Positions 2,770 to 61,297 of a DNA stretch of 64,000 nt are shown here, piece after piece. The notes beneath the pieces are model-generated. The model was not told the DNA's origin. It was given only the letters and a program-made list of their open reading frames with translations, and made no database searches. Both the position numbers and the translations under genes were made by a program. Source of the stretch: a virus; IMG/VR virus record IMGVR_UViG_3300045988_160394, positions 199,173 to 263,172 of that record, one strand, 5' to 3'. Positions within the stretch are counted from its first letter, which is position 1. Every line of letters begins with the position of its first letter.

Positions 2770-5700
2770 TTAAAAATTCCTATTTATATAATTCTCGATA
2801 TCTCTATCTGTTACTGGCTGATCTTTTTTATTTTTTATATTCATGTTTATATTAACAGCTCCACCTACTGTAGCTTCTGCTGCTTTTGCCATGATCTTCT
2901 CCATATACTTTCTACCTTTTTTAGTATCCGCCTTTATATTTATTATATAACCTTGTTGAGTATTCCCTGTCACATAACCGCTATCTTTTTCCATGAATTC
3001 AGGAATGCTCATAATTTGTTGTGATTTATTTTCTTTGCTAACTTCACTAGCTTGTTTATCATTTAAAGGATTACCAGAAGCATAGCCTCCAATCATTAAT
3101 CCAGCTGCTAAACCTAATACTGCTTTACCCATTCCTCCTACTCTTACATTTTTAACTCCATCAGCTAAAGATTCTGTCATACTTTCAGATAAACGTTTTA
3201 TTTCTGCGTCATATTGTCCAGAGTTCATTAGTTTGTTTTTTGCAATATTACTTTCTTGTTGAGCCATGCTTCTTTGAGCTATTTCATCTAAAGCATTTTG
3301 TAAGAAAGCAGGATCTCCATATCCCATTAAAGCTTGGTGTCTAGTTGCAAAAGTACTAGCTTCTTCAGCAGCTGCTCCAATAGAACCATTATACCAAAGT
3401 TTTTCAGTTCTTGCTCCATTTCTTCCAGTAGCTTCTATAGATGCTTTATAAGATAATGCTAGTTTGTCATGAGACATTTCTTTCATTCTTCCTAAGAATT
3501 TTTGTTTCATTGCATTAGCTCCACTTATCATAGGGTCAGCTTGTTTTTCTATATTAGCTCTTTCTTCTTTGCTTAATATAAGATGTCCCATATGTTCATA
3601 TGATTTCTTAAATATATCATCACCATAATCATCTAACCAACTGCCTAATTCATTTAATGATTCTGTAGATGCTACTGTTCCTTTATTATTAAAAATATCA
3701 TTCATTGCTTTTTTGAAGTTTTTAATTCTATTATCATCATATACTCCACCAGCTAATTTTTTAGAAGAGATTACTCCTTGTTCAGCTGTATCTAAAGCAT
3801 TCCAAACATAGTTATTAAAAGCTATTTCTTCAGGAGAAGTATTTCTAAATACATCAGCTAACTTAACAGCATTTAAAGCTTGGTTAACTGAACCTGTTGC
3901 AGCTAGTCCTGTTTTAGCCATCATTTCTTGTGCATACTTATCTACAGACATTCTTTTAATAGCTGTAGCTTCTAATTTACTAAACGTATCATCATCAACA
4001 TTACCTTTTATAACAGTTAAAGCTTCGTCTAGTATTTTGCCAGGCTCTGATGCTTTATTTAAATCTATATCAAATTTTTCATCTTTAGTTATGTCTTTAG
4101 CCAAACTTAATAAATTAGTTGTATCTTCACTTAGCTTATTAAACTCTTTTACAGTAGGCATATGAGCAACAGTTGTAAAAGTCTTTTTACCTAGAATAGA
4201 TTCTCCGCCTGGAACTAAAACCATGTTATCTGGATTAGATAAGTTTTGATTTTTTATAAAATCTTCTTTAATAGTTTTAGCTGCTTTATCTTGCCAATAT
4301 TTATTATCTGTAACAGCAACACTATACATAGCTCTTTCTTGTGCAGCAAAATAATCATATACTTCACCTGACATTAAATTGTTTTCTATTGCATAGTTTC
4401 TACCACCATTTTTATTAGCTAATTCATATAAAGCTCCATCTACTACTTTCCCATCTTTATCTCTATATTCAATTCTGAATGAAGATAAAGAGTCACCGTC
4501 TTGGTCGGCATTAGCTTTTAACATTGTAGATACAGATATCTTAGTTTGATTACCTTGTAATCTTTTATCTAAGAATACTCTAGTTTGGTTTATAGAATTA
4601 TTCCTTGTATTTGGATAACGGTCAGTTATATCAAAAGTACCATATTCTAATAAGAAATCATCCATTTCACTTTCTGTTTTAAATCCAAACTTCTTTAATG
4701 TTTCTGGTTTATAATATCCCATCTTTTCCATCTGTTCTTTTGATACGTATTTATAATCAAAATAAGCTTCACCATTAGCTTCTCATTCAGCTATTGTTTT
4801 ACCCATTATTTTAGATTTTTTAGTAAGATCATCTCCAACAGTTACATCTATACCTGCCTCTTTAGCTGCCTCTACTAACTCTTTAGTCGTAGTATCAGTT
4901 ATTAATCCAGATGATTTAAGTCTATAAGCAGTTGCATTTATTTCTATTTTACTAGCATTATGATGCATACCATTCTTACCAAATATAGAATCTCTTATAC
5001 CTTCTATAGCTTCTGTTCTATTTCCTAAAACTCTTTGGAATAGTCTTTCATATTCATCATCTTGTTTCCCAGATAAAGATTCTAATTCTTCTATACTATG
5101 TTTAAGCTTATTTAATTTTTGATGTCCTACATCTCTAACTTCCTCATCTGCTATTTTCATACCAGTACCAGGGACAGCTAGATATCTATTCTCCTGACCA
5201 AACTTTTCACCTAAATCTACAACTATGTTTCTTTCTACTAAATCATCAACTTTAAAGTTAACATCTTTGATATCAATAACTTCAAAGCCTTTTTGTTTCA
5301 TATCTTCTAAACTTAAGTTATATCCTCTATTAAAGCTATTAGCTTTCATAGCCATTTGTATTTTATATTCTTTTTCTGCACCTTCTACACCTAATTTAAT
5401 CTTATATTTTTTAGCGTATTCATGAATGTCTTTTAAATGAGCGTATCTTTCTGTTTTAACCATATTATCTGTTAGTAGTTCATCAGTGTATGGATTAAAG
5501 AATTGATCATCTTTAAATTGGTCTAATAAACCTTTTAATGATTTCTCTCCTATAATATCTTTAGAAAAAGTAACAGTACCATCAGCATTTTCTGTTAAAT
5601 GATCTTTGAAGGCATGTGAGCTTAACAATGTTTTAGTATCTAGTTCTCCATTATTAATCATTTTTTCAATTTGTTCTGCATGAGCTTCTGTCAAGGATAC

Positions 5701-8700
5701 CCTTTCTAATATAGATAATTCTTGGTCTCCAAACCTCATAGTTTTCATAGTGCCAGCTTTAGAATCTATATCTTCTAACATAGAATCTATTTTCATTATT
5801 TGTTGTTGAATAGCACTTTTCTCACTAGGGTCGGTAGACTTAATCATTTGCTTTTCTAGTCCTATTCTTTCTTTTTTTAATTCTTTTTTTGTTTTTAACA
5901 TTTCAAAGTATTCTGCTGTTACACCTGTTTGTGTTTCTGCATCTCTAACATATTTTACGTTCTCTCTAGTATTAGTACCTATAGCAACTTTAGCATCTTT
6001 TATAAACTTACCATCAACAGTTATATCTTTTTGTATAGTAGCATATGAACCAATAGCTTCTTTTTTGTATTCATATTTACCATCTTTATTCATAATATAA
6101 ATATCTTTAGCTACTAATCTATCATTTTCATCCATATCTTCTAATTCTTCATCTAAAGATTTTATTAATGCTGTAAACTTATCTTTATCTAATGATGTAG
6201 TTTTATTAACAGAATAAAATTTATCATCTATAAAGAATCTACCTTTCTTTTGTTTAACGCCTATAGATTCATAGCTTTTAGTGTCTTTATTTAAATCATA
6301 TTGTTCTATAAATTGAAATGCTTTATTAGAATTTATTTTATCTACAATAAAATCTACAGCATCTTTCTCTGAACCATATTTCTTACCTAAGCTGTTAATA
6401 GCTTTAGATAATAATCCTTCATACATTTGTCCTATATTACCGTGCTTAGCTACGGCATCATTAGCTAATAAATGAGTTTTATTTTTTAGTATCTTATCGA
6501 ATAATAATGCAGAATGCATATTTCTTTCTACAGTTATAGCTTTCTTTAAATCATCTAAAGATTCAAAACCTATTTTCTTAAGTGTACTTTCAGATAAATC
6601 TTTGTTTTTAAAGAATATAGCATCTACAGTTTCATTAGTAATTACTTTGTCTTTTACTATGTCCCAAGAATCTGTTTCTTTAAAAAATTGTTTTATCTTA
6701 TTGTTGTATGATCCAGTAGAAGCATAAACTATATCTGTCATACCTTTTTCTGCACCAGATGTCATTGTTTTAACATACCCCATAGCAGATATATCTTCTA
6801 TAGCATATTGTCCAGTAATACCTTCTTTAGATAGTATCTTCTCTAACTTAGCAGCCATTTCTGCTTGAGTAAGAGGTTGATTGTTTTTATCTAAAAATTT
6901 AGATAAGTTCTTTCTTATTATTTTATTTATATCTTCGTCTCTTAATTTAGTTCCATCACTTTCATAGAAGTTAAAATTGAAAACTCCATAATGCATTTTA
7001 GAAGCAAAGTCTACATTTCTTTCAGCAAAGCCTTTCCATTTAACAGCTGATTCACCTCTGCTTACTAATTTACCAGGAGAAGAATTGAATACTAATTCTC
7101 CATTTTTAAATTCAAAATTACCTCTATAGTTTAGTAATGCTTCTTGTTGTTTCTTTAAATCATTTCCTACTAATTCATTTAATAAAGCACTAACGTCATA
7201 ATTTTTACTAAGCTTCTGAGTACTAGCTGTTCTTAATCCATAAGCAGCTTCATGCACTCTTGAATCTATAATTCTCTCTTGCTCAAAAGTAGATATTGAA
7301 TTTCTTATATAGTTATAAGCTTTTTTCTCTATATCTTTTGTTTTTTCATCTACATTAGAATCTTTCATTACCTTAGCAAAGTTATTATCTATTAAAACTT
7401 GTAAAGCGTTGCTACTAACATATGTTGTATCCATCATTACATCCGTAGTTGTTTTACCTAATCCAAAATAATTTCTCATAGTTCTTTTATCCATAATATC
7501 AGAACTTAAAGTATTACCAGCAGTAATTCCTAGTTTGGATTTCTTTATATCATCTACTCTTAATTGTAGAGCATTACCAGACTGAGTTATAGGTGGTCTT
7601 TGAGAATTATCAAAGATAGAGAATGTAGAGTTTCCTGGTCTATATCCTCTTATTCCTATAAGTGCAGATGTTTTATTTTCTTGACCAGTAAAACCTAATT
7701 CTTTAGTTAAAAAAGCAAATTCATTAGATACGTTTTTGTCTTCTTTAATTTTATCTAATACAAAGTTAATATTCTTAATCAAATCTCTAGTCATTTCTGG
7801 ATTAATATCTTCTAATGCTTTCTCTTCTTTTACATAATATTTAAGATGTTGTTTCATATTATCTAAGAATTCTTTATCAGCAAAATCTATTCCATCTACT
7901 ATATGATTTAATTTTTGATTTTCTCCAAACAAATCTACTAATACATTTTTTATATCTGATATATCTACTCCATAGTTTGAATCTATATCGTTACCTCCAA
8001 AACCATTTATGGTAGATCTACTTCTTAATGAAGCATTATTTAAAGATACTAATCCTACTAATCTATCAAAACCTTCATCTTGGCCTTTCTTCTCTACTAC
8101 TCTTTGTACGTTATTACTTATACTATATCTATTAAGATTATCTAAAGATGAAGCAGAACCTCCTTTTACTTTTCTACCGTCAGCTTTGAAAGTTAACTTA
8201 TTATTTACTTGTATTTTCATAGAACCTAATTCTAAATACATAGTCTCAGAAGGATCATTGTATTTTATTTTAGGCATAATTAATTCCTCTGATCTACCAT
8301 TTTTAAATAATAATAAAGAACCATCTTCTTGTACAGATATAGATGCTCCAAGTTTATCGGCAGTATGAACTACATCTTTTACATAAGTATTTAAATCTTT
8401 ATATAAGTTGTCATACAATATCTGTTTAGTCCTATCACCTTTTTTTATTACATTTCTATTAGGTATATAATACTTTTCAACTAAACTTTTAGCATATCTT
8501 TCAGCAGATTTCTTAGTACCATCTAGAACATTTATATTTGTTCTTTCAACTATATTATTTGCTATTTGTTGAATTATTGGTTTCATATTTTCACTATTTA
8601 AGTATCTAACAAATTCAGTATTACCTTCTAATGCTTTCATAAATGTTCTGCTACCATTTAATATTCCATTTGTAACATTAGACTCTTTAGCTTCTCTCAT

Positions 8701-11610
8701 TCCTTCAATTATAGCTTCTGCTATTTGATACGGATGATAATCTTTATCTTTAAAGCTATTTTTTGAACTAAACTTAAATTGTTTCTTTATATTTTTAAAA
8801 GCCTTTGTATCTTTTAAAACCTCATCTTCTTGTAACATAGCAAATAGTTTTTCAACTGCATCTTTTTCGTAAATTAAATTACCTTTTTTATCTTTACCAT
8901 GAACAGCCTCTGTAGCTGTTTTTATTATTGAGTAAGGGCTATTAACATCATTAAGATTAATCTTTAATATGTTTGCTGTATCTAATGATTTAGCAGTATC
9001 TATATAATTAATTCTTTTTCCTCTAATTATCTTATCGTATTTTATTTCATATAGATTTTTAAAAGTATTAAAATCTGTTTGTAAATTAACGTCGCCTAAT
9101 TTAATCATATCGGCAATATCATCATTACCGCCTCTAAATTTGTTATTAAATATTCATTCAGCAGTCGTTCCTTTTACTTCTTTAACTGTTCTATTAAATA
9201 ATTCTTGTTTAACACTTTCAGCCGTTTTAGGATCTTTAAATACTTCAGTAGCTTCTAAAGCTTCTATTATATTTTTAAACATATTACCATAGCTATTAAC
9301 CATTTCTAATCCTGTAGCATTATTATCAACAGTTGATTGTAATAATCTCATTACATCATTTTTACTATGTCCTAAAGTAGCTATAATCATTTCTTGTGAT
9401 TTTATTAATTGAGCATTACTAAGTTCCATAGCCATTTGCCCTTTAGAAACTCTTTCTGCCATGATAAGAGATATATCTCTACCTGTAATATCCATGTTCA
9501 ATTCTTTAGATAAGTTTTCTTGTAGATCAAGTACATTCTTTATTTTCTTATAAGAATTATCTCTAAACATAGAGTTGTCTGCTCTAGAAATTAATTTCTT
9601 TTCATTATCAGCTAATACAACTCTATTAAATAACTCAGTATCAGAAAGACCTTCTTCATTAACTGGTTTAAAGACAACTTTATTAGTTTCTTTATTTTTG
9701 TTAATTTCTCTAATATCAAATCTGTCTTTCATTCCTTTTTTGATTTGAATTCCATTATCTGTTCTTTCTGCAACAATATCAAAGTTACCGCTTAAAAAAG
9801 CATTCATCTCTTTTTCTGATTTAAATATTAGATTTTGTGTTAAATCTCCTAGTCTTGTTGTAGTTGCGTAATCATCATGTACTGCCATGTTTAATTGAAC
9901 TTGATAAAGTTTTTTACCAGAATATTCAGGGGCTATATCTCCCATCATTGTTCTCAATTCATCTGTTAGTTCTATTTCTCTTATATTAGATATATCGTAA
10001 AAAGAACCTTTATTAATTCCGAAACCTGCACTAAAGTTTTCATGCATAGCTCCACCAGCTGCTTGTAAGGCTTCATCTCCTTTACCTAGTAAATGATTAT
10101 CAGCTGTATATATAGTTCCTGTACTTTTACTTTGTGCAAAGTTGAAATAATTTCTTCCACCATAACTAGTACTAACTCCTTTTTTAGCTTGAAGTATTTG
10201 CTTACCAGGAGTTAATACTGTATCTTCTGTTTTTATATTTTCTATTAAATTGTTTATGTGCTCTATAACAGATACATTCCCTGGAAGACTTTCTGATTTC
10301 TTTGTAAAAAACCATGATAATCCAGTAACGTCATCTTCAGCCATATGAGGTTTTAGTCCTTCACTATTAAACAAACCTCCATAATGTTTTTGTAATAAGT
10401 ATTCCTGTCCTCTTACTTTATCTATATCTCCTATTTTTGCATTTCCATATACAGAAGATAATGAATTATAATCTGTTGCTAATTTAACTCCACCTAAAAC
10501 ATCTAGATCTGCATAAGATGGAATATTAAAGCCAACTCTTTTACTTTCGAAATAATTATTTAATTTTCCATTATAATCGTTATTCCATTTTAATAACATA
10601 TTATTTAAAATAAGTTCGTCAAACGCATTACTGTTAAAACCAGAAATCATTGCTTTTTTATTATTAACAGCTGTTTGAGCTTTACTTATAGTTTGTGTAA
10701 CTTTTAATATATCTGCTTTTATTCCATCAATTTCTCCTGTTTGATGATAAACATTATTTAAAACTTCTGCTCCTTTTTCTATAACTGAAATATCTTTATA
10801 GTTATTTCTATCTACATTAGGGAAATTAGTTGCTTTAAAATATTTTTCTCCTTTAACTTTTTCATATTTAAAATCTTTATCTGCATATTTAGCTAAACGC
10901 ATAGCTGTTACTTTTAATTCTTCGTCACTATCTATAGTTCCATTTTCTATAGCCTTTCTTATTTTATTTACAGTTTCTTCTTTTTCTTTATCTGACATTC
11001 CTATAAGTACACTTACATTATCTATTACCTTACCTGTTTTAACGTCATATTCTTGCATAGCAAATTCTGTAATAGCATTAGGTCTTCATATATTATTTTT
11101 ATCTTTTCCTCCAAGAGTTTCTAAGTCCCAAACAAAAAGACTTCCTCCATTACTTTTTAGAGAGTTAAAATATTTATAAGATTCTTTTCATGAATTGATA
11201 GATTCATTAGCAGAACCTCTTTGTTTACTATGAACAACATTACCTAAATTCTTTATTGTTAATCCTAACATATTCTCTGATGAATTAGATTTATCACCTA
11301 TTATTTCAAAGAAGTTTAATCCTTTATCTCCGATGTTGGTTAATTGTCTAAGCTTTTCTGTTATTACATCTATATCGCCAGTAGCAACTTTTTTATTTCA
11401 TGTATACTTATGCTTATTAATAAACATATGGTCAGAATCTTTTATTAAATACTTACCACTATGTAATAATTCTATTGTTCTATTTATTTCTTCTATAGCC
11501 GCATTTTCTTTATTTATATCTACTTTTTTTGAAGCTTCAATGTTACGTTGAGCTATACGGATTCTATCCATAGTAGTTCCAACTATATTAGTTGATTTAT
11601 TATTAGCCAT
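2770..11610 (-). CDS. Giant 2946-aa protein: N-terminal DEDDh (DnaQ-like) exonuclease motifs plus RNA polymerase beta-like and beta-prime-like (NADxDGD) motifs; candidate virion-packaged RNA polymerase
   Basis: Track ORFs 11398..11610, 9154..11058, 4783..9108 and 2770..4731 lie in one frame. They are separated only by TGA at 11398, 11188, 11086, 9154 and 4783; the gaps were scanned and hold no TAA/TAG. ATG 11608-11610 lies behind GAGGTGG; TAA at 2770. Motifs: LFVWDLETLGG, NSNAFDELIL, KPHMAEDDV (Exo I-III, ca 10320-11130); AKHGNIGQMYE (ca 6430-6447); DRYPNTRNNSI...KANADQDGDS (NADQDGD = 4492-4512). Confidence 0.75.
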
Positions 11611-12037: not shown

Positions 12038-15000
12038 TTAAAATAACATTGAAACCAATCCTTGAATACCTGATTGGACACCGTATTCGCCTATTTTTTT
12101 AACATCACTAGCAGTTTGACTTATGTCTCCAACTATTCATAGTCCTGGTGCACTAGTAGGACTCATAGATATATTTTGTAAAGAAACTCCTAATCCAGAC
12201 ATTGCTGTTACCATATTAGAAGCATATTTGATACCACCTGTACCTTTATCAAATTTATGAATGTCTGGTGCATCTTGATATTGAGCTTTTCCTTTCTCTG
12301 ATTCGTAATATCCGAAATCAGATAATAACATACCTTCGTTCTGAATAGTTTTCATTTTAACATGTTTCAAATTAACGTTAGGTTTCCAACCTCTTCAGTT
12401 CATACCAGGTAGTTTATGCTTTTTGAAAAACTTCCTGTTACTATCTACTTTTTTTACTTTCTCTCTTCAAGCTATTTGTAGAGGTTTCCTTAAATATTCT
12501 GGTAAAGATTTAAGGATTTTTTTTCTTTCGTTCTTATCAGTTTCATTCATAAAGTTTATAAAATAATCTTTATATTGATCTGGTATTGACGCTAAGATTT
12601 CATCTTGTGTAGCTCCTTCTGATAATCCATAAATAGTAGATTCCATTGCTTTCTTGTAAGCAACTGCTGCCTTAGTATACTTACCACCTTTAAGCATGGT
12701 TTGTTGTGATTGTAAAGCCTGTATCTTATTGTTAATCTTCATCATTTGTTGATCATATTCATATCCACCAGCTGTATATTTATTACTCAACTTTTCGGCC
12801 TTTTTAATCAATTTAGCAACTTTTTCTTTATTTTTATCTATTTTTCTAAAAGCTTTCTTTATATTTACGCTTCCTTCGAAAACAAAAGCTCTTAAAGCAG
12901 CTTGATTATATAAGCCTTTATATTTCACATATTCTAATCTATCAAAATATTCATCTAGTTCAAATTTCTTTTCAACTTTCTTAGGTATTCATTTTCTTCT
13001 AAACATGTCTTTATCAAAATCAGGATTCTTAATAGCTGATACACCTAATCCAACTAAAGCACCTATAGCTGCACCTTTACCATGTCCTAATTCATCTAAT
13101 TTTAAATATCTAGATAATGTTTCTCCAGCAAAAGCAAATGATGCTGTTGCTTTCAATGGATTTTCAGCATTATTTCATCCTCATGCTAAAGACCCTAAAA
13201 CTGCTCCAACTTCTGCTCCTACTTCTATATTAGTTTTCTTTCTTATATTAGTAGTTCTAACTCCTAAGTTCCATAAAGCAGCAGTACCCATTCCAAGTAA
13301 AGCTGTAGGGTTAGTTGCAGCCATTAATGCTCCTGCTCCATATTTTAAATAAGATTCACTAGTTAGTTTCCCTATATTCATAAATAAAGCAGCGGAAGCT
13401 ACTGCACCTGCATGTTGTAACATAGACTGTCCTGATATTCTATTAAACGCAGGTTTTACGAATCCTTCAATAGGATGATCCCAAGTAGTTAATGAGTTAC
13501 CATAAATTTGTTCATTCATGAAAGATTCTCTAGCTGTTTCTATTTTTAAATACTTATTATGAAGGAATGGAATATTAGCATGACCAATAACTTCTTGAAT
13601 AGCTCCTAATGTTTCTTGCATAGCTGAAACATTTGCTAAATAACCTATGGCACTTGTATCTTCTTTATCTTTAGTTGCCATTCCTCTTTCTATTAATGTC
13701 TTGTTAATATTAGTTCCTAATCCATCTGTATCATATATAACAGCATTAGTAATTAATCCATCTTCTAATCTTTTTATAGCATTAGCTGATGTTCTATAGT
13801 TAATATGTTGACCTACATCTAATACATCATGGACATCAGCATCTTTATCTAAAACAATACCTCCAAGATTAAGTTTTTCTCCTGAAGCTAATTCTACAAT
13901 AGAACCATTGATGCTTTTAACTACACCTTTTTTCATTTTTACATTATTACGTATATATCTGTAATTAAAGAATTCATGGTTCCCTGACATTTTATTAGCC
14001 CTTTGTTGAATCTCTTTCATCTCTTCTATTAACTCAGGGTCTTTTACAGTATTTCTAGCAATGTTTCTCCATATCTTATATTCTTGTGATGATGGTGCTA
14101 TGTCTGCTAATATTTTAAATCTATCAAATGCACCATATTCACCAAACTCATCTGAATGAAGTTTATTAAGAGTTTCGTATCCTTTACCAGGTAATCTCAT
14201 TTCTCCTTTAGGTAATGAAGTAAATGGGTCCCCTGTTAAGAATCTTTCAGGTAATCATTCAGGCATATTATTTCTTAATGGATTATATCTAATAATAGAC
14301 TTATCTTCTGATGGAAAGAAACGTCTAGCTATCTCCATTAATTCTCCACCAAAACCACCTATTTGAGAATCTCAGAATCCTCTAGAGAAACTTGTCATTG
14401 CTCCTGCATCAGCATATCTCATTTTATAGCTATCTTCTCCAAAAGCAAAGTCTCCTAAGAATCCATATATACCAGATAGCTGTTTAGCAGAATATATTCC
14501 ATCTTGCATAAAATTAGTTACAAGACTTTTATTAACCAAACCAGGGTCATATATATCACTATAATATTCTGAATTTCTAACATTCATTTGATTAACAAGA
14601 TTAGTGTATACATAAGTACCTTTAGTCTTATCAGGTAATACACCTTTATTGTATGCTGGGTTAGATTCATAACCAGTTAAATAATTCGCTGCTTTTTTAA
14701 TATACTTATTTAATCCAGAAACTATTTGTCTAGCTATTACTCCTGTTTCTTGAGATTGGCTAGATATTGTTTGTACAATAGGGCTATTAGGATCTATTGC
14801 TTGTGTTTTATCGAATGCTGGATTAACATCTCCATTAGGAACATTTAAATGATTAAAAGATTCAACATCATTTTCTACAAAACCTACTCCAGGAGAAGAA
14901 ACTTCTCCATGAGAAATGTTTATATTCATATGGCCGTCTCCTGGATTACCATATGGAACATACTTAGCATTTCTTACATCAGTACCTTCAAAAATTAAAA

Positions 15001-18000: not shown

Positions 18001-18403
18001 CTTTAATACCTCTAATAGCATCTGAAGCTCTTACTTGATCTATGTTTTTTATTTGACCAAATAAATTATTTTTTCTAGTACTGTTAAATTTAAAAGAATC
18101 TTTTCTAAGTTTTCTTTCTTCTTCAAAAGTCTTTTTGCCTAATCGGAAAGCATCTCTTAAATCTTCACCAATAGTTCTTTTATCTAATCCTGTTCTAGTT
18201 GCTTTTAAATCTCTAAGCTCTTTATTAGCTTTTTTAATAGCCGTTTTAGCAGAAGGAATAAATTCACTTGATAAAGTTCTTTTTAAAGATGTATTATTAA
18301 AAACAGCTGCACCGCCTCCTATGGCTAATGCAGCTGCTCCAACTTTGGCGACTTTACTAACTGTAGAAGAATCTCTTTCTTTATCTCTTCTTTTTTTAGC
18401 CAA
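12038..18403 (-). CDS. 2121-aa tape-measure-like giant tail protein
   Basis: Track ORFs 15794..18403, 14372..15127, 13181..14200, 12467..12928 and 12137..12370 are one frame. There are 13 in-frame TGA (15794, 15542, 15464, 15287, 15158, 14372, 14255, 13181, 13175, 12989, 12467, 12395, 12137) and no TAA/TAG until 12038. Basic N-terminus, long helical body, Gly/Ala-rich hydrophobic segments near the C-terminus. It sits directly after the chaperone pair, downstream of sheath and tube. Confidence 0.7.
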
Positions 18404-46300: not shown

Positions 46301-46517
46301 AAAACTTTCATCATATATATTTTTATATATTTTTCTACACCAATTTACAAATTTTTCCTATATAGAGCAAAATTTTTATAATTTTTCGAAGCAGTACCTA
46401 GTTATTGATAATAGATAAAAAGCTAAGAATTTTAGCCCCAGGTCTATTAAGTTAAACAAAATAAAAATAAACGAAAGGGTCTAATGATAAAAGATTGATT
46501 AGACAGAGGTGAATAAA

Positions 46518-47283: not shown

Positions 47284-47404
47284 TATAGATTATGCCTATA
47301 TATGCATTACGTATATATAGGTATAAATGTGTATTATTCATACACTATGCACAGAGTATGTGGCATTATGGTCAACGAACCGCCCGCTCAATGGAGGTGC
47401 AATT

Positions 47405-49663
47405 ATGTCAAATTTAAACAACGTATTAGGGAACAACAATAATGTAGAAGGAGGAAGCAATATGAAAAAAGTAGTAATCAAAGCTACAAACAACAATAGC
47501 AGAAAGGCTGCTAAAATGAACAAGGAGTTACATGATGTAATGGCTAAGAGATTTATGAAACAAAATCTATATAACTGGGCTCCAGTTATCAGAATGATTA
47601 CTATAACAGGAGTAGATGATTTAGAAAACTTAGTGTTTGATATGTACAATACTATAGGAGGTAACAGCCCTGTAATGAGAGAGTTCGTTAAAAGAAATGG
47701 ATCCGTTACAGAAGGGGAGGTAGATGTCGTTCAAGTATTACCAGATGGAAGAAAAACAACTAGAAAGGTTGTTTGTGGAGAAGTTAAAGGTAAGATGAGA
47801 CATGATTATGTGGAGGATATATTCCTTATCCAATTTAAGGATTTAGAAAAGAATTTTAAAGGTATAACTAAGAAAGAAAAGAAAGAAGCTAGTGAATTAT
47901 TAGTTGCTTCCGTTCTTGATAATGGATTATCCATAGTAACAGATGTTAATGGATATCCTGCTGTTAGAATAAAAGGCCAAGAGATGGAAGGAGATGTAGT
48001 TAATAAAACTATTTCACCATTCATATGGACACCTTCAAACGAAAGAAATGGTCAAATACTAATGACTAGTATAGACCATAATGAAGCTTGGGACATATTA
48101 GAGACTGTTGGTGGAAGAACAGTTAGCAAGCTATTAGAAAAAGGAGAAGAGATGCCAATAGCTAAATTCAAGAAGTTAGCTTCAAGAATAGGTTTATTCG
48201 CAACTCCAGCTATTAAGTTCGGAAAAATAGGTACAGCTAAACATGGCCTATTATTAATAAACAGGACCATAGCTGGTGCTGATGATTTTGATAAAATTGC
48301 TAAGGAAGTGTTAGACTCTGTAGGAGTTGAAATAGATGATAACCAATATGATGGAGCTGTTTGGTTCTCAGCAGAATGGTTATCAGATTGTTTCAAAGAA
48401 AATGGATTTAACATTTCACCAGCTCAAGCCATCTGGTTTTCAGCTCAGCTAAGAGTCAATAAGATATATGCTAAAGTATTTGGAGAAGCATTTATTCAAG
48501 AGCTAGTTAATGTAATGGCTCACAAATTAATTGAAAACTTAGTAGAAGGTAGAGATTATACTATCATAGGTAATAGAGACAATATCTCAATGATACTAGA
48601 TAGTAATGGTGCTAAGTTATTGGATTTAAACTTAAAAGATAAATGTGATGTTTATCTATTAGATATAGCTAAAGGCACACAATCAGGTACAGCCATACAA
48701 ATGACAGATAAAATGGCTGTAAAAGATAAAGAAGCTACTTGCAACTTCTTATACAAAAGAGGTATAGAAGAATGTCACAATTATGTAAATGCTATAGGTG
48801 ATACAACTAAATCATTAGTAGAAGATGATATAAATGTATCAGAGTACTTAATAAATGTTGCAAAACATAATGGAGGAGCAATTGCTTCTAAAGTATTCTC
48901 TGATCAATATATCGTATCAGGTATATTAAGAGATGCAACTAAGAAACATGAAGCTGCTTATAGAAGAGGTAGAGTAGAATTAAACTCACTATTCCAAAGA
49001 GCTTTATTTGATAATACTTATGTATTTACTAGTGGTAAATTAGACTCAGTATTAAGAGTTGATAGTAGAGGTGCTATAGAATGCTATTCAACTGATGTTT
49101 TAGAATTAAATAGAGAAGTAATAGATGCTATAGAAAATGATAATACATTAAATGATTATGAGAAGGATATGAAATTAAGAGAAGTATTATCTGCTTGTAT
49201 TATTAAATACCCTACTCCGGGTACAGAGGAAATAGAACTTGTAGTCTTCTTAACAGAGAAACAAATAAATAGAAGACTACAAGGTTATGTGAAATCAGGT
49301 ATGATAACTAAAGAAGAAGCTTTAGTTCTATATAAATATTTTGTATACTCATCATACGGTACAATAAAAATAGCTGCTGATAATAGTGTAAAACACAAAT
49401 TAGCAGGATTTGATACAGATTACGACGGATTCGCAGTCGTATTCGAAAAAGAATTGGTCACTATAATAGAAGGAGTGTATGTTGAAAGAACTGAATCATT
49501 CCAAGAATCAACAGGTTCAATAGCTACACATGGTGGTGTTACTCCATTTATTGATTGTGGACATGATGCTAAGAACTATATAGAGCTAAATAATAAAAAT
49601 GTTAATATGAAAGATAAATCAGTACAGGACGAAATAAGTATTTGGAATAACTTATTCGAGTAG
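47405..49663 (+). CDS. 752-aa protein with two-barrel RNA-polymerase-like catalytic loop (DxDxD); paralogous to the C-terminal region of the giant 2770..11610
   Basis: ATG 47405 lies behind GGAGGTG (the track start 47327 has no RBS). IIKYPTPGTEEIELVVFLTEKQINRRLQGY...LAGFDTDYDGFAVVF aligns with the giant's ITDRYPNTRNNSINQTRVFLDKRLQGN...KANADQDGDSLSSF. DTDYDG = 49412-49429. Confidence 0.65.
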   Translation: MSNLNNVLGNNNNVEGGSNMKKVVIKATNNNSRKAAKMNKELHDVMAKRFMKQNLYNWAPVIRMITITGVDDLENLVFDMYNTIGGNSPVMREFVKRNGSVTEGEVDVVQVLPDGRKTTRKVVCGEVKGKMRHDYVEDIFLIQFKDLEKNFKGITKKEKKEASELLVASVLDNGLSIVTDVNGYPAVRIKGQEMEGDVVNKTISPFIWTPSNERNGQILMTSIDHNEAWDILETVGGRTVSKLLEKGEEMPIAKFKKLASRIGLFATPAIKFGKIGTAKHGLLLINRTIAGADDFDKIAKEVLDSVGVEIDDNQYDGAVWFSAEWLSDCFKENGFNISPAQAIWFSAQLRVNKIYAKVFGEAFIQELVNVMAHKLIENLVEGRDYTIIGNRDNISMILDSNGAKLLDLNLKDKCDVYLLDIAKGTQSGTAIQMTDKMAVKDKEATCNFLYKRGIEECHNYVNAIGDTTKSLVEDDINVSEYLINVAKHNGGAIASKVFSDQYIVSGILRDATKKHEAAYRRGRVELNSLFQRALFDNTYVFTSGKLDSVLRVDSRGAIECYSTDVLELNREVIDAIENDNTLNDYEKDMKLREVLSACIIKYPTPGTEEIELVVFLTEKQINRRLQGYVKSGMITKEEALVLYKYFVYSSYGTIKIAADNSVKHKLAGFDTDYDGFAVVFEKELVTIIEGVYVERTESFQESTGSIATHGGVTPFIDCGHDAKNYIELNNKNVNMKDKSVQDEISIWNNLFE

Positions 49664-49692
49664 TATTGATTGAGTAATTGTGTAATAGGTTC

Positions 49693-49728
49693 GGTGAGTG
49701 TATACCTTTAAAACTCACCATTTAAATT
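49693..49728 (+). terminator. Terminator-like hairpin after the RNAP-like gene
   Basis: GGTGAGT-(13 nt)-ACTCACC followed by ATTTAAATT. Confidence 0.45.
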
Positions 49729-49795
49729 AAAATATAAAAATAAAAGATAAAAAATTAAGGAAATCTTCAAAGAGTGAAGATATTAGGAGGAAACA

Positions 49796-51646
49796 ATGAT
49801 GAAAATATTATTAAACAACAACAACAATGGAGCAAATACTTTAATGGAGGCTGTTTCAAACGAAATGATGAAAATAACAGAAGCATCTAAGTTTAATGTT
49901 GCTAATGGTGTAGCAGGATTATATAACAGTGAAAAGAGAATAGATAAGAGAATGTTAGATTATTTAACAAAAGTAGATACTAGAAAGCTAGATAACATAC
50001 AAAGAGCTTTCGCAGTAACATCTTTTGCGACAGGTTCAATGGTAGGTATAACTACTATTGGTATAGAAGCAGCTTTAACTTTAGCTACTTCAACTTATCA
50101 ATATTTAGATAAAGATGGGAAGGTAAATGCTAAGAAAGTTGAAAGAGTTGTTAAGAACATAGGTGAAAAGCCAGAAGCTGGATATAGATATGTATCAGTG
50201 TTTAATTACAATGTAAACAAGGCTTTAGCTATATCTAAGTTCAGCAGAGCTTCAATATTTATAAGAGTATCTGCTCATGAAATAAAAGAGTTCCAAAAGA
50301 GAATAAGAAAGATTGATATGACAGCTATCCAACCAGAAGATCTTGTTACAATAGCATATGACATGGATATCATAGGTAGAGCTCTTCAAGAGTTATCTAT
50401 AGACGTTACTAAGGATAAATCAAAAGATATTGGTTATGATATCAATTCATTAATCAATATGACTAATAAAACAAAGTCTAACATTATTAAGAATACAGTT
50501 GTTAAAAACAACATAGAAGATATAATATCAGAAAAGATATTTAAAGGAACAGTTTCTAAAAAATACTCAATGGAAGCTATAATAGATGGTAAACCAATGA
50601 GTGAAGTAGATGTTAATGATAAAGATGAATTAAATAGTGCTTACATCGATAATTTAGGTGGAGATTGTAAAGACGCTATAAATGCTGGTTACATGAAAGG
50701 ATTCGAGCCTATTGTTGAGTTATTAAAAGTAAGCAATAATGATGCTTACCAAGTATTCAAGAACAGAGTAGTAACAGCTTCTCAAAACTCTAACCAAAAG
50801 GATGTTATTATGAATCAAATAATAACTGCTGCTAGAGTTGCTATGGATATCATTAATAATCTATATGGTAAGAAGCAATATGACAATACTATAACAAGCA
50901 GCTATATCAAAGAAGTTGCTGCTAAATTAAGAAATGCTATATACACTGTAGGAGCTAAATATGGAGTAGATCCAGTTAACACAGTTAAGATAGCTATGTC
51001 AGCTCCATTTGCTAAAATAGTTAACGGAGAATTAAAAGTAAAAGAAAGACCAACTAGCTTAAGAGCTATATTAGACATCTTCCCAAAAGAATTTGTAGTA
51101 GAATATGTATGTAATCCATATGATACAGAACAAAGCAAAAGAGAAGTAGCTGAATCAGCTTGTTACTTAACTGTTACATTCTCTGATTATGATTTATGCT
51201 TAGGAGATGAATTAGATTTCGAAGATAGTTTATCTATGACTGAGTATGGTATGGTTTCAATTAAAGAAAAATTCTCAGGTAAAGCTGTTGTTACAGAAGA
51301 AGGATTAAAAGCTGTTGTTGATATATACGCATTTGAATATACTGATGCTGTATTCTTAAGTGAAATATATACAAATAACGAACAAAGTTTTAATGCTCCA
51401 TTTGTACAACCAGTTTGCTTTACAAAAAATAGTGATGAATCTAATATAGAAACATCAATAGAAATGAACGCTATAAGAGAGAAAATAGACACTTGCTTAG
51501 ACGCAGGTACTAACGGTGTTCTATTATGTGTAAAAACAAAAGAGGGGAACTTATCAAAGATAGGTAGATTAGCTTTCCCTTATCAAGGAAAAATTAGAAT
51601 AAAAGATTATATAATAAATACATCTTGTGGAGTTGTATTATTATAA
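49796..51646 (+). CDS. Hypothetical early protein (616 aa)
   Basis: Intact ORF with RBS AGGAGG and TAA stop. No family recognised by eye. Confidence 0.65.
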   Translation: MMKILLNNNNNGANTLMEAVSNEMMKITEASKFNVANGVAGLYNSEKRIDKRMLDYLTKVDTRKLDNIQRAFAVTSFATGSMVGITTIGIEAALTLATSTYQYLDKDGKVNAKKVERVVKNIGEKPEAGYRYVSVFNYNVNKALAISKFSRASIFIRVSAHEIKEFQKRIRKIDMTAIQPEDLVTIAYDMDIIGRALQELSIDVTKDKSKDIGYDINSLINMTNKTKSNIIKNTVVKNNIEDIISEKIFKGTVSKKYSMEAIIDGKPMSEVDVNDKDELNSAYIDNLGGDCKDAINAGYMKGFEPIVELLKVSNNDAYQVFKNRVVTASQNSNQKDVIMNQIITAARVAMDIINNLYGKKQYDNTITSSYIKEVAAKLRNAIYTVGAKYGVDPVNTVKIAMSAPFAKIVNGELKVKERPTSLRAILDIFPKEFVVEYVCNPYDTEQSKREVAESACYLTVTFSDYDLCLGDELDFEDSLSMTEYGMVSIKEKFSGKAVVTEEGLKAVVDIYAFEYTDAVFLSEIYTNNEQSFNAPFVQPVCFTKNSDESNIETSIEMNAIREKIDTCLDAGTNGVLLCVKTKEGNLSKIGRLAFPYQGKIRIKDYIINTSCGVVLL

Positions 51647-53730: not shown

Positions 53731-53760
53731 TATTATTATGAGTCAGTGAAATATCTGGCT

Positions 53761-53821
53761 CTTTCTGTCGTGGAAGATACAGTCCACCTGATGATGGCTA
53801 TTAGGTAGCCGAAACAGAAAT
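53761..53821 (+). ncRNA. Hammerhead ribozyme, type III (open stem III)
   Basis: Layout: UUUCUGU-C^ (stem III 5' strand, GUC triplet, cleavage after C53769); GUGGA-AGAUACAG-UCCAC (stem I); CUGAUGA; extra U; GGCUA-UUAGG-UAGCC (stem II); GAAA; CAGAAA (stem III 3' strand). All invariant core nucleotides are present. Confidence 0.85.
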
Positions 53822-53846
53822 ATTATTACATTATGAGGTGATTGAT

Positions 53847-54269
53847 ATGAAAATATTTATACCAGCTTACGAAGGAATATCTGGATTATATACTGTAGAA
53901 GAAATAAGAGAAGGAGAAAACTTCTATTATGATAATGGATCTATGGTAAACATATATGACAACTATTTTATTGTTATCAATAACAATGGAATAATCGAGT
54001 ACGAAAGTGATGAAGGATTATACAGCATATTTGTTATGTGTTCTGATGAAGAAATAAAATTCTTAGAACAATTTACAGATATAGGATCTAAAAAGATTTT
54101 AGAGAGAATGTTAGAGCGTAGAATGTATTACGCTAATCTTAAAAAATCTGTAGATGGTAAAACATGTCCTGTATGTGGAAAGAAACTATCCGAATCTAAT
54201 ATAGATGCTGGAATAAGAAATCTATTCTGCAATAATTGTAAGCATAGTGAAACTATTTGCATAGATTAG
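53847..54269 (+). CDS. Hypothetical early protein (140 aa) with C-terminal zinc ribbon
   Basis: ATG lies after GAGGTGATTGAT. Motif CPVCGKKL...FCNNCKH. The G of the TAG stop is the first nt of the next ribozyme. Confidence 0.6.
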   Translation: MKIFIPAYEGISGLYTVEEIREGENFYYDNGSMVNIYDNYFIVINNNGIIEYESDEGLYSIFVMCSDEEIKFLEQFTDIGSKKILERMLERRMYYANLKKSVDGKTCPVCGKKLSESNIDAGIRNLFCNNCKHSETICID

Positions 54270-54329
54270 TCGAAACGGTAGAAATACCGTCGTACAGGGA
54301 TGGCTTCCTGTGCCTGATGATGACAAGCC
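54269..54329 (+). ncRNA. Hammerhead ribozyme, type II (open stem II) with loop I pseudoknot
   Basis: Layout: GUC-GAAA; ACGGUA-GAAA-UACCGU (stem III with GNRA loop); C^ (cleavage after C54291); GUACAGG-GAUGGCUU-CCUGUGC (stem I); CUGAUGA; extra U; GAC (pairs with the 5' GUC); AAGCC, which is complementary to GGCUU in loop I. Confidence 0.8.
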
Positions 54330-54363
54330 AAACTATATTTGAATTTAAAGGAGATTGATTGAT

Positions 54364-54921: not shown

Positions 54922-54986
54922 TCGAAACGGTATAGAAATATGCCGTCGTGTAGAGATAGCCTACTACACCTGATGATGACAGGCTA
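54921..54986 (+). ncRNA. Hammerhead ribozyme, type II with loop I pseudoknot (second copy)
   Basis: Layout: GUC-GAAA; ACGGUAUA-GAAA-UAUGCCGU (stem III, 2 bp longer than copy 1); C^ (cleavage after C54947); GUGUAG-AGAUAGCCUA-CUACAC (stem I); CUGAUGA; extra U; GAC; AGGCUA, which is complementary to UAGCCU in loop I. Stems I and III and the pseudoknot all covary relative to 54269..54329. Confidence 0.8.
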
Positions 54987-55019
54987 AATAATATTTTAAT
55001 TTAAAGGAGATTGATTAAT

Positions 55020-55297: not shown

Positions 55298-55356
55298 TTC
55301 TTCTAATGTAGCCAATGACGGTCACAAGCCCGTATAAGAAATACAGAGTGGAAGAA
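55298..55356 (+). ncRNA. Twister ribozyme (P1-type arrangement)
   Basis: Sequence: UUCUUC U^AA UGUA GCCAAUG ACGG UCACAAGC CCGU AUAAGAAA UACA GA GUG GAAGAA. Pairings: P1 UUCUUC/GAAGAA, P2 UGUA/UACA, P4 ACGG/CCGU, pseudoknot CAC/GUG. Conserved blocks UAA, GCCAAUG, UC.CAAGC and AUAA match the rice twister as I remember it (..CUAACACUGCCAAUGCCGGUCCCAAGCCCGGAUAAAAGUGGAGGGGG..), with compensatory changes in every helix. Predicted cleavage between U55304 and A55305. Preceded by hairpin AGGGAG-UUCU-CUCCCU. Confidence 0.85.
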
Positions 55357-61102: not shown

Positions 61103-61105
61103 AAT

Positions 61106-61297
61106 ATGTTATATACAACAGTTAAATGTGATTGTGGAAGATATGCATCAGCTGATGATTTAATGGAATCAGAGGCTAGTAGTATAATCATTTGCCCAGA
61201 ATGTTCAGCAACTTGCCCTAATTGTGGTAGAATAATTTGTGAAGATGAAATACTATGGAATACAAAGAAATGTCCAATGTGTGATCCAGATTATTAA
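61106..61297 (+). CDS. Small zinc-ribbon protein (63 aa)
   Basis: Motifs CDCG...CPECSATCPNCG...CPMC. RBS AAGGAG. Confidence 0.55.
   Translation: MLYTTVKCDCGRYASADDLMESEASSIIICPECSATCPNCGRIICEDEILWNTKKCPMCDPDY

What the first reader, a model, noticed from the sequence alone, without database searches (positions are those of the whole stretch)
47405..49663. Second, early-encoded RNAP-like protein paralogous to the giant's catalytic region
The 752-aa early protein aligns by eye with the beta-prime-like segment of the giant. KYPTPGTEEIELVVFLTEKQINRRLQGY...GFDTDYDGF matches DRYPNTRNNSINQTRVFLDKRLQGN...ANADQDGDS. The shared features are [KR]YP, VFL, RLQG and a DxDxD triad. It also has an AKHG block (GTAKHGLLL), like the giant's AKHGNIG.

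Its size and single-chain layout recall YonO-type single-subunit two-barrel RNAPs.

Together, the two genes suggest a phiKZ-like two-polymerase programme. In that model an injected enzyme (late gene, TGA-containing) transcribes early genes, and an early, code-neutral enzyme transcribes the recoded late operon.
Basis: partly seen in the sequence, partly recalled or inferred. Interest (0 to 1): 0.75.

Follow-up and report, generated by a model that had tools for sequence, protein, structure and literature searches.

The report
Split YonO/QDE-1-like phage RNA polymerase subunit
The 752-aa early protein is a real but previously unannotated relative of the two-barrel RNA polymerases YonO and QDE-1, is probably only the catalytic half of an enzyme completed by the next gene, and shows no detectable specific relationship to the giant late protein.

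Summary
The ORF is real (47405..49663, +, 752 aa, strong Shine-Dalgarno) and lies in a TGA-free early operon of a large TGA=Trp-recoded myovirus. Its AlphaFold model matches only two-barrel polymerases: QDE-1 and RDR2 (E~6e-9) and crAss phi14:2 gp66 (E=1.6e-5). The DTDYD triad, K-x-P and a basic cluster (R350, K357, K404) are invariant across a superfamily of 181 unnamed clusters. The superfamily profile specifically detects SPbeta YonO (E=6e-6), aligning DxDxD onto DNDGD. The RNAP-like, YonO-type reading is therefore supported.

Two claims fail. Second, p752 is probably not a complete single chain. The next gene, p616 (49796..51646), is homologous to the C-terminal half of 1,300-1,700-aa fused members (E=3.6e-36), and the gene pair recurs in related phages.

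The giant's polymerase status rests only on an invariant DRYPN...N[AG]DxDGD block. The two-polymerase programme is plausible but untested.

The parts
47405..49663 (+). p752: N-terminal catalytic subunit of a YonO/QDE-1-like two-barrel polymerase (N-domain, basic-residue barrel, connector, DxDxD barrel)
   Evidence: ORF and SD. AF2 model pLDDT 77, pTM 0.75. Foldseek PDB hits are only QDE-1, RDR2 and gp66. 97 close homologs and 181 clusters at 50% identity. YonO detected by the superfamily profile.
47393..47399 (+). Shine-Dalgarno GGAGGTG, 5 nt before ATG 47405
   Evidence: Read directly from the sequence.
49400..49429 (+). L666-A-G-F-D670-T-D672-Y-D674-G675: putative Mg2+-binding DxDxD loop
   Evidence: Invariant in 31 close homologs and in 67 diverse members. 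DxDxD present in 137 of 147 remote proteins. Aligned to YonO D535-N-D-G-D.
49205..49231 (+). K601-Y-P603-T-P-G-T-E-E609: first strand of the DxDxD barrel (R/K-x-P signature)
   Evidence: P603 invariant; K601 and E609 nearly invariant across the superfamily. Strand E596-601 in the model.
48446..48616 (+). Q348-x-R350...K357...K404: invariant basic cluster, candidate second-barrel active-site residues
   Evidence: Invariant in 67 diverse sequences. Q-x-R...K aligns with maize RDR2 'QIRYGGYKG', but at E=0.77, which is not significant on its own. Beta strands 346-351, 356-363 and 394-428 in the model.
49796..51646 (+). p616: probable C-terminal subunit of the same polymerase (homolog of the post-DxDxD half of fused family members)
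   Evidence: phmmer against P0107 (1402 aa) gives E=3.6e-36, with p616 residues 72-564 aligned to 783-1308; 12 more fused proteins at E=1e-10 to 6e-6. The iterated profile recruits 31 long members. Collinear in 15 fused proteins; the downstream gene is a homolog in L001, L005 and L007. No in-frame TGA.
47290..47326 (+). 16-bp-stem palindrome carrying CCTATATA on both arms, directly upstream of p752
   Evidence: Function unknown (attenuator, terminator, or promoter/operator).
46325..46460 (+). Conserved non-coding block at the strand switch (CCTATATAG, TTATAATTTTTCG, ACCTAGTT, GCCC..GG..TA.TAAGT): candidate early promoter and leader
   Evidence: 78% mean column identity with L005 and L001, whose polymerases are only 40-47% identical to p752.
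2770..11610 (-). Giant late protein, 2,946 aa with 5 in-frame TGA (=Trp); candidate but unproven polymerase-bearing protein
   Evidence: About 25 full-length homologs of 2,900-3,060 aa. Invariant residues listed. No Pfam, PHROG or PDB sequence hit. C-terminal model has no fold match.
4492..4623 (-). Giant DRYPN...NADQDGD block (aa 2330-2373 of the full-length protein)
   Evidence: D-R-x-P-N and D-x-D-G-D invariant in 23 homologs. The sub-profile's best hit in E. coli RpoC is NADFDGD at 455-466, with 3 of 500 shuffles reaching it. N[AG]DxDGD occurs once in all six-frame ORFs.

Best explanation
p752 is the catalytic N-terminal subunit of a two-barrel (double-psi beta-barrel) nucleotide polymerase. 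It belongs to the clade that contains SPbeta YonO, eukaryotic QDE-1/RDR enzymes and crAss gp66. It carries the N-terminal domain, a barrel with invariant basic residues (R350, K357, K404) and the barrel with the metal-binding D670-x-D672-x-D674 loop, then ends about 80 residues later.

The rest of the enzyme is supplied by the next gene, p616. In related proteins this part is fused to the p752-like part. By position it corresponds to the region downstream of the DxDxD barrel in other two-barrel polymerases.

Both genes lie in the TGA-free early operon near the strand switch, so they can be translated before any change in decoding. By analogy with YonO (SPbeta late genes) and P23-45 gp64, the p752/p616 enzyme most likely acts as a non-virion DNA-dependent RNA polymerase that transcribes later phage genes.

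Shown: the fold class, the conserved catalytic signature, the YonO relationship, the split/fused relationship, and the early, code-neutral location. Inferred: heterodimer formation, a DNA template, and which genes it transcribes.
For: Fold: the AF2 model (pLDDT 77, pTM 0.75) has 17 significant PDB hits, all two-barrel polymerases. These are QDE-1 and RDR2 at E~6e-9 over about 590-740 columns, and phi14:2 gp66 at E=1.6e-5. BFVD hits include a phage protein annotated as RdRP.

Conservation: D670, D672, D674, G668, P603, Q348, R350, K357, K404 and D316-G317 are invariant in 67 sequences at 15-67% identity. DxDxD is kept in 137 of 147 remote members, including DFDGD, DVDGD and DIDGD forms.

Sequence link to known enzymes: the superfamily profile hits YonO in three collinear pieces at E=6.2e-6 in a 237-sequence control (next best 0.25); no shuffle of 300 reaches the score, and DxDxD aligns on DNDGD. 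The only PDB sequence hits are maize RDR2 at E~0.8, with motif-for-motif correspondence.

Split enzyme: p616 matches the fused protein P0107 at E=3.6e-36, plus 12 others. The number of residues after DxDxD is bimodal: 10-94 in 72 proteins and 484-803 in 42. The two spans are collinear in 15 fused proteins, and a p616 homolog lies immediately downstream in L001, L005 and L007.

Early and code-neutral. Homologs are nearly all full length under standard gene calling.

Functional precedents: YonO is a DNA-dependent RNAP for SPbeta late genes (PMC5467207). P23-45 gp64 is an early-encoded two-barrel nvRNAP (PMC10770324). RdRPs and YonO are treated as one clade, and YonO-like enzymes are noted in two jumbo phages (PMC7824862).
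Against: There is no biochemical or expression data. Pfam (including the RdRP family), PHROGs, NCBIfam and PDB sequences give no significant hit for p752.

p616 has no detectable similarity to YonO's C-terminus, RpoC or any PDB chain. A by-eye bridge-helix resemblance failed its test. What p616 contributes structurally is therefore unknown.

The p752/p616 complex was not modelled. No distinctive promoter motif was found upstream of late genes. QDE-1-type enzymes can also copy RNA or ssDNA, so the template is not settled. Some 'short' remote members could be truncated gene calls.
Confidence: 0.6

Rival explanations
1. One reading: p752 is a complete single-chain RNAP that arose as a paralog of the giant's catalytic region. 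The two form a phiKZ-like programme in which the injected giant transcribes early genes and p752 transcribes the recoded late genes.
For: Both families keep an invariant [KR]-x-P...DxDxD signature. The giant's block best matches E. coli beta' NADFDGD. The giant is late-encoded, TGA-containing and about 2,950 aa, like known virion RNAPs. p752 homologs and giant homologs share contigs, judging by matching contig lengths of 263,974 and 128,917. P23-45 has such a paralogous vRNAP/nvRNAP pair (PMC10770324). The conserved early block lacks canonical sigma70 spacing.
Against: No method detects similarity between p752 and the giant: BLASTP, two HMMs and two hhalign runs. RLQG and AKHG are not conserved. 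The single-chain idea conflicts with the p616 fusion evidence. The giant's fold is unconfirmed. Its 'beta-like' block fails a shuffle test, with 166 of 500 shuffles doing as well.
Confidence: 0.15
2. p752/p616 is a QDE-1-like RNA- or ssDNA-templated polymerase used for something other than general transcription, such as priming replication, making dsRNA or antisense RNA, or countering host defence.
For: The best structural matches are RNA-dependent or dual-activity enzymes (QDE-1, RDR2). The only PDB sequence hits are RDR2. A related phage protein is auto-annotated as RdRP. No late promoter motif was found. No recognisable replication proteins were seen among the early neighbours.
Against: Every characterised phage member of the clade (YonO, gp66, P23-45 gp64 and gp96) is a DNA-dependent transcriptase (PMC5467207, PMC10770324, bioRxiv 10.1101/2020.03.07.982082). 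The sequence link to YonO is significant, whereas that to RDR2 is not.
Confidence: 0.15
3. It is a PolD-like two-barrel DNA polymerase used in phage replication.
For: PolD shares the two-barrel core (PMC7708050, PMC7281927). The early-operon location would suit a replication enzyme.
Against: No PolD chain appears among the 17 PDB hits with E<=0.001. The family links by sequence to YonO, not to PolD.
Confidence: 0.05
4. It is an inactive or structural relic whose motif matches are coincidental.
For: A bare DxDxD is common in the window, with 10 occurrences. There is no Pfam hit.
Against: Eleven residues are invariant across 67 sequences down to 15% identity, including all three aspartates. The full-length fold match is confident. 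The family is large and under evident selection.
Confidence: 0.03

Closest known systems
YonO of Bacillus prophage SPbeta (single-chain two-barrel DNA-dependent RNAP that transcribes late genes; PMC5467207)
   Same: It is a phage-encoded, non-virion, sigma-independent-type two-barrel enzyme. The p752-superfamily profile detects it specifically and collinearly, with DxDxD aligned on DNDGD and a shared Y-x-F-x-S-x-S/G-Q-x-R-type N-terminal motif. Sizes are comparable (839 vs 752 aa).
   Different: YonO is one chain with about 300 residues after the triad. p752 stops about 80 residues after it, and the remainder appears to be a separate protein. The close-family profile does not see YonO, and tblastn of p752 finds nothing in 50,697 phage genomes. 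The triad is DTDYD rather than DxDGD.
QDE-1 / RDR2 (eukaryotic RNA-silencing two-barrel polymerases)
   Same: These are the best structural matches: E~6e-9, probability 1.0, TM-score (query-normalised) about 0.4 over roughly 650-740 columns. Motifs correspond: SPSNER~FSASQLR, K..R.G~KCAARMGQ, DG~SDGIG, Q.R...K~QIRYGGYKG.
   Different: The Pfam RdRP family does not match p752, and the sequence E-value of 0.77 is not significant. The eukaryotic enzymes are single chains of 1,000 aa or more with an RNAi function. p752 is viral, shorter and split.
crAss-like phage phi14:2 gp66 virion RNAP (PDB 6VR4)
   Same: It has the same fold clade (Foldseek E=1.6e-5) and is a phage enzyme for host-independent transcription.
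   Different: gp66 is a 2,180-aa virion-packaged late protein of a podovirus. p752 is small, early-encoded and from a myovirus.
Thermus phage P23-45 gp96 (tape-measure-fused vRNAP) plus gp64 (nvRNAP) (PMC10770324)
   Same: It is a precedent for a giant structural protein hiding a two-barrel RNAP, recognised only by DFDGD, together with a small early-encoded two-barrel nvRNAP.
   Different: In P23-45 the two are demonstrable paralogs. Here no similarity between p752 and the giant is detectable. P23-45 structures were not among p752's significant fold hits. P23-45 late genes use host RNAP.
phiKZ/AR9-type jumbo-phage multisubunit vRNAP and nvRNAP (PMC7598289, PMC4666361)
   Same: These are two-polymerase programmes whose enzymes are split into several polypeptides.
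   Different: They are beta/beta'-like (cellular-type clade) and were not hit by p752's model. p752/p616 is a split of the YonO/RdRP-type clade.
YonO-like single-subunit enzymes noted in jumbo phages Bacillus 0305phi8-36 and Clostridium c-st (PMC7824862)
   Same: These are YonO-type enzymes in large Firmicutes phages. A BFVD hit of 1,218 aa (A7KVB1) may be the 0305phi8-36 protein; that identification rests on my own recollection of the accession range and was not checked.
   Different: They are described as having both barrels in a single subunit. tblastn of p752 and of two remote members finds no deposited phage.

Membership tests
Two-barrel (DPBB) polymerase superfamily | Overall fold with two double-psi beta-barrels forming the active-site cleft | tested here: met
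   The AF2 model matches only two-barrel polymerases at E<=1e-3 (17 of 17 hits).
Two-barrel (DPBB) polymerase superfamily | Invariant DxDxD metal-binding triad in one barrel | tested here: met
   D670, D672 and D674 are invariant. DxDxD is present in 137 of 147 remote members and is aligned to YonO DNDGD.
Two-barrel (DPBB) polymerase superfamily | Two conserved basic residues contributed by the second barrel | tested here: inconclusive
   R350, K357 and K404 are invariant and lie in beta-rich segment 346-428. Q.R...K pairs with RDR2 QIRYGGYKG only at E=0.77. Their spatial position was not verified.
Two-barrel (DPBB) polymerase superfamily | Bridge helix and trigger-loop region following the DxDxD barrel | tested here: inconclusive
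   p752 has only one helix (682-703) and a disordered tail after the triad. The region is presumably supplied by p616, but p616 shows no match to RpoC, YonO or PDB chains, and the bridge-helix lead failed.
Two-barrel (DPBB) polymerase superfamily | Templated RNA synthesis activity | not testable with these tools
   Requires biochemistry.
YonO-like phage RNAPs | Detectable sequence homology to YonO, including the catalytic loop | tested here: met
   The superfamily profile against YonO gives E=6.2e-6 in a 237-sequence control, with no shuffle of 300 reaching the score and three collinear segments. The close-family profile alone does not detect YonO.
YonO-like phage RNAPs | Both barrels and the downstream elements in one polypeptide | tested here: not met
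   p752 ends about 80 aa after the triad. The C-terminal half is a separate adjacent gene here and in L001, L005 and L007, and is fused in 30 or more other members.
Eukaryotic-type RdRP (Pfam PF05183; QDE-1/RDR) | Match to the family profile at its curated threshold | tested here: not met
   There is no Pfam hit at E<=1 for p752 or for 8 remote members. The similarity is structural only, plus a sub-threshold RDR2 alignment.
Paralog of the window's giant protein | Significant sequence or profile similarity between the two families | tested here: not met
   BLASTP E=24 and 1.5; HMM -2 bits; core profile finds no hit; hhalign probability 0.5% and 0.14%.
Virion-packaged giant RNAP (N4 / crAss gp66 / P23-45 gp96 type), tested for the giant rather than p752 | Two-barrel or other polymerase fold in the giant, and presence in virions | tested here: inconclusive
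   Invariant DRYPN...N[AG]DxDGD, with its best RpoC hit on NADFDGD (3 of 500 shuffles). The 653-aa C-terminal model (pLDDT 66) has no fold match, and there is no PDB or Pfam profile hit. Virion presence is not testable here.

The most novel reading that the evidence does not exclude
This phage lineage runs a fully self-contained two-polymerase programme coupled to a switch in genetic code. An injected ~2,950-aa giant with a cryptic two-barrel active site (N[AG]DxDGD) transcribes the TGA-free early operon from the conserved CCTATATAG/TTATAAT block. That operon encodes a split YonO/QDE-1-type polymerase (p752 + p616), which then transcribes the TGA=Trp-recoded late genes, including the giant itself. 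If so, the polymerase hand-over and the code change are two layers of one temporal switch.
Probability: 0.22. Interest if true: 0.85.

Novelty: new variant of a known kind. Interest (0 to 1): 0.62.

Why it matters
Phage-encoded two-barrel RNA polymerases of the YonO/QDE-1 clade are thought to resemble ancestral RNAPs and to be the source of eukaryotic RNAi polymerases, yet only a handful have been characterised. This finding exposes a large, entirely unannotated branch: 181 clusters at 50% identity, with no Pfam, PHROG or NCBIfam model and no relative in about 50,000 deposited phage genomes.

The branch exists in both fused and split forms. The break lies just after the catalytic barrel, which gives a natural experiment on which parts of the enzyme can be separated.

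It also places a phage polymerase in the code-neutral early module of a stop-codon-recoded phage. That makes the proposed link between recoding and late-gene control directly testable by asking which polymerase reads the recoded genes. For annotation, p752-like and p616-like genes should be called as a pair.

Tried and rejected
1. Sequence-library searches for p752 found nothing significant: Pfam, PHROGs, NCBIfam, PDB phmmer and the close-family profile against PDB.

2. tblastn of p752 and of two remote members against 50,697 phage genomes gave no match. Cluster look-up of 10 remote members returned no names.

3. Paralogy with the giant was tested five ways and all were negative.

4. I could not model a giant slice spanning both candidate barrel motifs, because the in-frame TGA made the sequence ineligible. 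The stop-free C-terminal 653 aa gave a mediocre model with no fold match. This is inconclusive, not negative.

5. I saw by eye a resemblance between the giant's KTMTSGAEKG/AKHGNIGQ blocks and RpoB DKMAGRHGNKG/SRMNIGQ. A shuffle test rejected it, with 166 of 500 shuffles doing as well. The full giant profile against RpoB, RpoC and PDB also found nothing.

6. I saw by eye a resemblance between p616's invariant RALxESxID..K and the beta' bridge helix. This was rejected: the best RpoC hit is at 943-969, not 769-805. The p616 profile against YonO, RpoC and PDB found nothing.

7. Promoter motif discovery in 9 late and 16 early spacers gave only a weak (T)ATATAATA(A) signal in 4 of 9 late spacers, which cannot be told apart from a generic -10-like element. 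CCTATATA is not enriched window-wide (5 found, 6 expected), though it clusters at 46.2-47.3 kb. The sigma70 scan is at background level.

8. The crAss-like identity implied by the gp66 comparison was rejected: the window encodes a tail sheath, so this is a myovirus.

9. The third syntenic gene, p387, shows no link to the polymerase family.
Full report
**What is at the coordinates**

The window is part of a large, AT-rich (~29% GC) tailed phage genome. Genes run on the minus strand up to ~46.2 kb and on the plus strand after that. The minus-strand block encodes terminase, portal, major head protein and a tail sheath. The phage is therefore a myovirus, not a crAss-like podovirus.

The ORF in the finding is real. 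ATG 47405 is preceded by GGAGGTG (47393-47399), and the ORF ends at TAG 49661-49663, giving 752 aa. The longer reading from ATG 47327 starts inside a 16-bp-stem palindrome and has no ribosome-binding site.

Every plus-strand ORF from 46.5 kb to the end of the window lacks in-frame TGA and stops at TAA or TAG. Many minus-strand ORFs contain in-frame TGA. The giant is one frame, 2770..11610, 2,946 aa with five TGAs.

**The claimed alignment with the giant**

The best HSP anywhere has E=1.5.
- An HMM of 31 p752 homologs scores the giant at -2 bits among only 234 ORFs.
- A profile of the catalytic core from 140 superfamily sequences does not report it.
- hhalign of the p752 family, or of a 67-sequence superfamily alignment, against a 23-sequence giant-family alignment gives probabilities of 0.5% and 0.14%. 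Neither hit is on the quoted segment.

Within p752's own family RLQG and AKHG are not conserved. A bare DxDxD occurs ten times in the window's ORFs. Only [KR]-x-P and DxDxD are invariant in both families, and their spacing differs (69 vs 37 residues). Specific paralogy is therefore not supported.

**What p752 is**

Sequence libraries are silent: Pfam, PHROGs, NCBIfam and PDB sequences all give nothing significant. The protein nevertheless has 97 close homologs at 36-93% identity, nearly all full length.

A profile search of 1.84 billion representatives finds 181 clusters. The remote ones match mainly the K-Y-P-T-P-G...D-T-D-Y-D-G segment. The triad is invariant in the close family and in 67 diverse members at 15-67% identity. 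The other invariant residues are G668, P603, Q348, R350, K357, K404 and D316-G317. Of the remote proteins, 137 of 147 keep DxDxD, including the classical DFDGD, DVDGD and DIDGD forms.

The AlphaFold2 model has pLDDT 77 and pTM 0.75. [quoted passage not shown] The next hit has E=0.1. Cellular multisubunit RNAPs, PolD and the P23-45 enzymes are not among the significant hits.

Two sequence-level results corroborate the fold:

- The superfamily profile's only PDB sequence hits are maize RDR2. At E~0.8 this is not significant alone, but the invariant residues pair with the RDR2 sequence: SPSNER~FSASQLR, K257..R261-G~KCAARMGQ, D316-G~SDGIG, Q348-x-R350...K357~QIRYGGYKG.
- The same profile detects SPbeta YonO in three collinear segments, with DxDxD aligned on YonO's D535-N-D-G-D. 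The E-value is 6.2e-6 in a control set of all window ORFs plus RpoB, RpoC and YonO, where the next best is 0.25. No shuffle of 300 reaches the score.

The literature treats RdRPs and YonO as one clade of the two-barrel superfamily and notes YonO-like enzymes in two jumbo Firmicutes phages (PMC7824862).

**p752 is probably half an enzyme**

In p752 the triad sits 78 residues from the C-terminus. The model shows one helix (682-703) and a disordered tail after it. YonO has about 300 residues after its triad.

Across 120 superfamily proteins the number of residues after DxDxD is bimodal: 10-94 in 72 proteins, 182-324 in 6, and 484-803 in 42.

The gene immediately downstream, p616 (49796..51646), has its own AGGAGGA ribosome-binding site after a 132-nt spacer and contains no TGA. 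It is homologous to exactly that long C-terminal extension:

- phmmer of p616 against P0107 (1,402 aa) gives E=3.6e-36, with p616 residues 72-564 aligned to P0107 783-1308. P0107's N-terminal part matches the p752 profile at E=7e-106.
- Twelve further 1,300-1,700-aa proteins match at E=1e-10 to 6e-6.
- An iterated p616 profile recruits 31 long members.
- In 15 fused proteins the p752-like span ends just after DxDxD and the p616-like span starts 7-188 residues later, under 110 in all but one.

In related phages a 560-642-aa gene follows the p752 homolog. It is a clear p616 homolog in L001 (E=6e-110), L005 (7e-94) and L007 (6e-19). The L008 neighbour is positionally equivalent but too divergent to score.

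This is a classic fused/split ('Rosetta stone') relationship. p752 and p616 are most likely two subunits of one polymerase, split just after the catalytic barrel.

What p616 contributes is inferred from position only. It has no detectable similarity to YonO's C-terminus, RpoC or any PDB chain. A by-eye bridge-helix resemblance of its invariant RALxESxID..K block failed a targeted test.

**The giant**

It has about 25 full-length homologs of 2,900-3,060 aa, some from Firmicutes-type sources. Invariant residues include D-R-x-P-N and, 35 residues later, D-x-D-G-D, with consensus KAN[AG]DxDGDS. N[AG]DxDGD occurs once in the whole window.

A sub-profile of this block finds E. coli beta' exactly at NADFDGD (455-466) as its best hit. 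The match is only 12 residues long, and 3 of 500 shuffles reach its score.

A second block that looked beta-like to me is not supported (166 of 500 shuffles). I could not model a slice spanning both blocks because of the in-frame TGA. The stop-free C-terminal 653 aa gave a mediocre model (pLDDT 66) with no fold match. Pfam, PHROGs and PDB sequence searches are negative.

The giant therefore carries a credible but unproven polymerase signature. The P23-45 precedent, where a tape-measure-fused vRNAP was recognisable only by DFDGD (PMC10770324), makes this worth testing. I put it at roughly even odds.

**How it most likely works**

- Shown: the fold class, the catalytic signature, the YonO relationship, the split/fused architecture, and the early, TGA-free position third in the operon after the strand switch, with conserved synteny.
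- Inferred: p752 and p616 assemble into a non-virion DNA-dependent RNA polymerase. It is made early and transcribes later phage genes, as YonO does for SPbeta late genes (PMC5467207) and gp64 does for P23-45 early and middle genes (PMC10770324).

I found no polymerase-specific promoter motif upstream of late genes. Who transcribes the early operon is open. A ~130-nt non-coding block at the strand switch is 78% conserved among phages whose polymerases are only 40-47% identical. It contains CCTATATAG and TTATAAT, but its TTGACA-like hexamer lies ~31 nt from TATAAT, which is not canonical sigma70 spacing. That leaves both host RNAP and an injected enzyme possible.

Rivals for p752/p616 are an RNA- or ssDNA-templated role like QDE-1 and a PolD-like DNA polymerase. 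Neither is excluded by computation, but the characterised phage relatives and the fold hits disfavour them.

**Novelty and verdict**

The kind of enzyme, a phage YonO/RdRP-type two-barrel polymerase, is known. This branch is unannotated, absent from deposited phage genomes and unnamed in all sources. Its split two-gene form has no description I could find in the literature available here. I therefore class it as a new variant of a known kind.

The protein is RNAP-like and YonO-type, and it is early and code-neutral. It is wrong on paralogy with the giant and on the single-chain layout. The two-polymerase programme remains an attractive, untested hypothesis.

Noticed in passing
window 54268-54333 (+); similar cores at 53731-53837, 54922-55010 and 61103-61238: A type II hammerhead ribozyme lies between early genes (Rfam RF02276, 40.4 bits, above its gathering score of 37, E=1.3e-5). 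It was found only in permissive mode; the whole-window gathering scan missed it. The CTGATGAT core recurs in 4 early spacers.
   Followed up: partly
window 55300-55354 (+): A twister-P1-like ribozyme candidate lies in another early intergenic spacer (RF03160, 49.1 bits, below the gathering score of 67.2, E=1e-8; the P1 stem is shortened). Together with the hammerheads this suggests the early polycistronic transcript is cut by self-cleaving ribozymes.
   Followed up: partly
window 46325-46460 (+); L005:2680-2860; L001:6915-7095: A ~130-nt non-coding block at the strand switch is 78% identical across phages whose proteins are only 40-47% identical. Invariant runs are CCTATATAG, TTATAATTTTTCG, ACCTAGTT and GCCC..GG..TA.TAAGT. 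It is a candidate early promoter plus leader or small RNA. Its spacing is not canonical for sigma70.
   Followed up: partly
window 47290-47326 (+): A perfect-looking 16-bp-stem palindrome (TTATGCCTATATATGCATTACGTATATATAGGTATAA) sits directly upstream of p752 and carries the same CCTATATA motif on both arms. It is not conserved upstream of the L001 homolog.
   Followed up: partly
window 9.9-11.6 kb (-), giant aa ~160-430: The giant's N-terminus shows DnaQ-like 3'-5' exonuclease motifs by eye: WDLETLGG at aa 161, HMAEDDV at aa 422, and GxNxxxxDxPI in homologs. Pfam does not recognise a domain there.
   Followed up: no
window 2770-3300 (-), giant C-terminus: A conserved glycine-rich hydrophobic segment (GGMGKAVLGLAAGLMIGGYASGNPLND) is followed by a conserved ~100-aa C-terminal domain. 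It looks membrane-inserting or ejection-protein-like.
   Followed up: no
window 12038-18403 (-): Under code 4 this becomes a single 2,121-aa ORF with 13 in-frame TGAs, a second giant late protein. Under code 11 it is fragmented.
   Followed up: no
L001:321-2363 (-): The large terminase of the related 266-kb phage carries intein-splicing Pfam hits, so it appears to be interrupted by an intein.
   Followed up: no
window 49664-49795 (+): The 132-nt spacer between p752 and p616 contains a stem-loop (GGTGAGTGTATACCTTTAAAACTCACC) and then AGGAGGA before the p616 start. It could attenuate or process the transcript between the two subunit genes.
   Followed up: no
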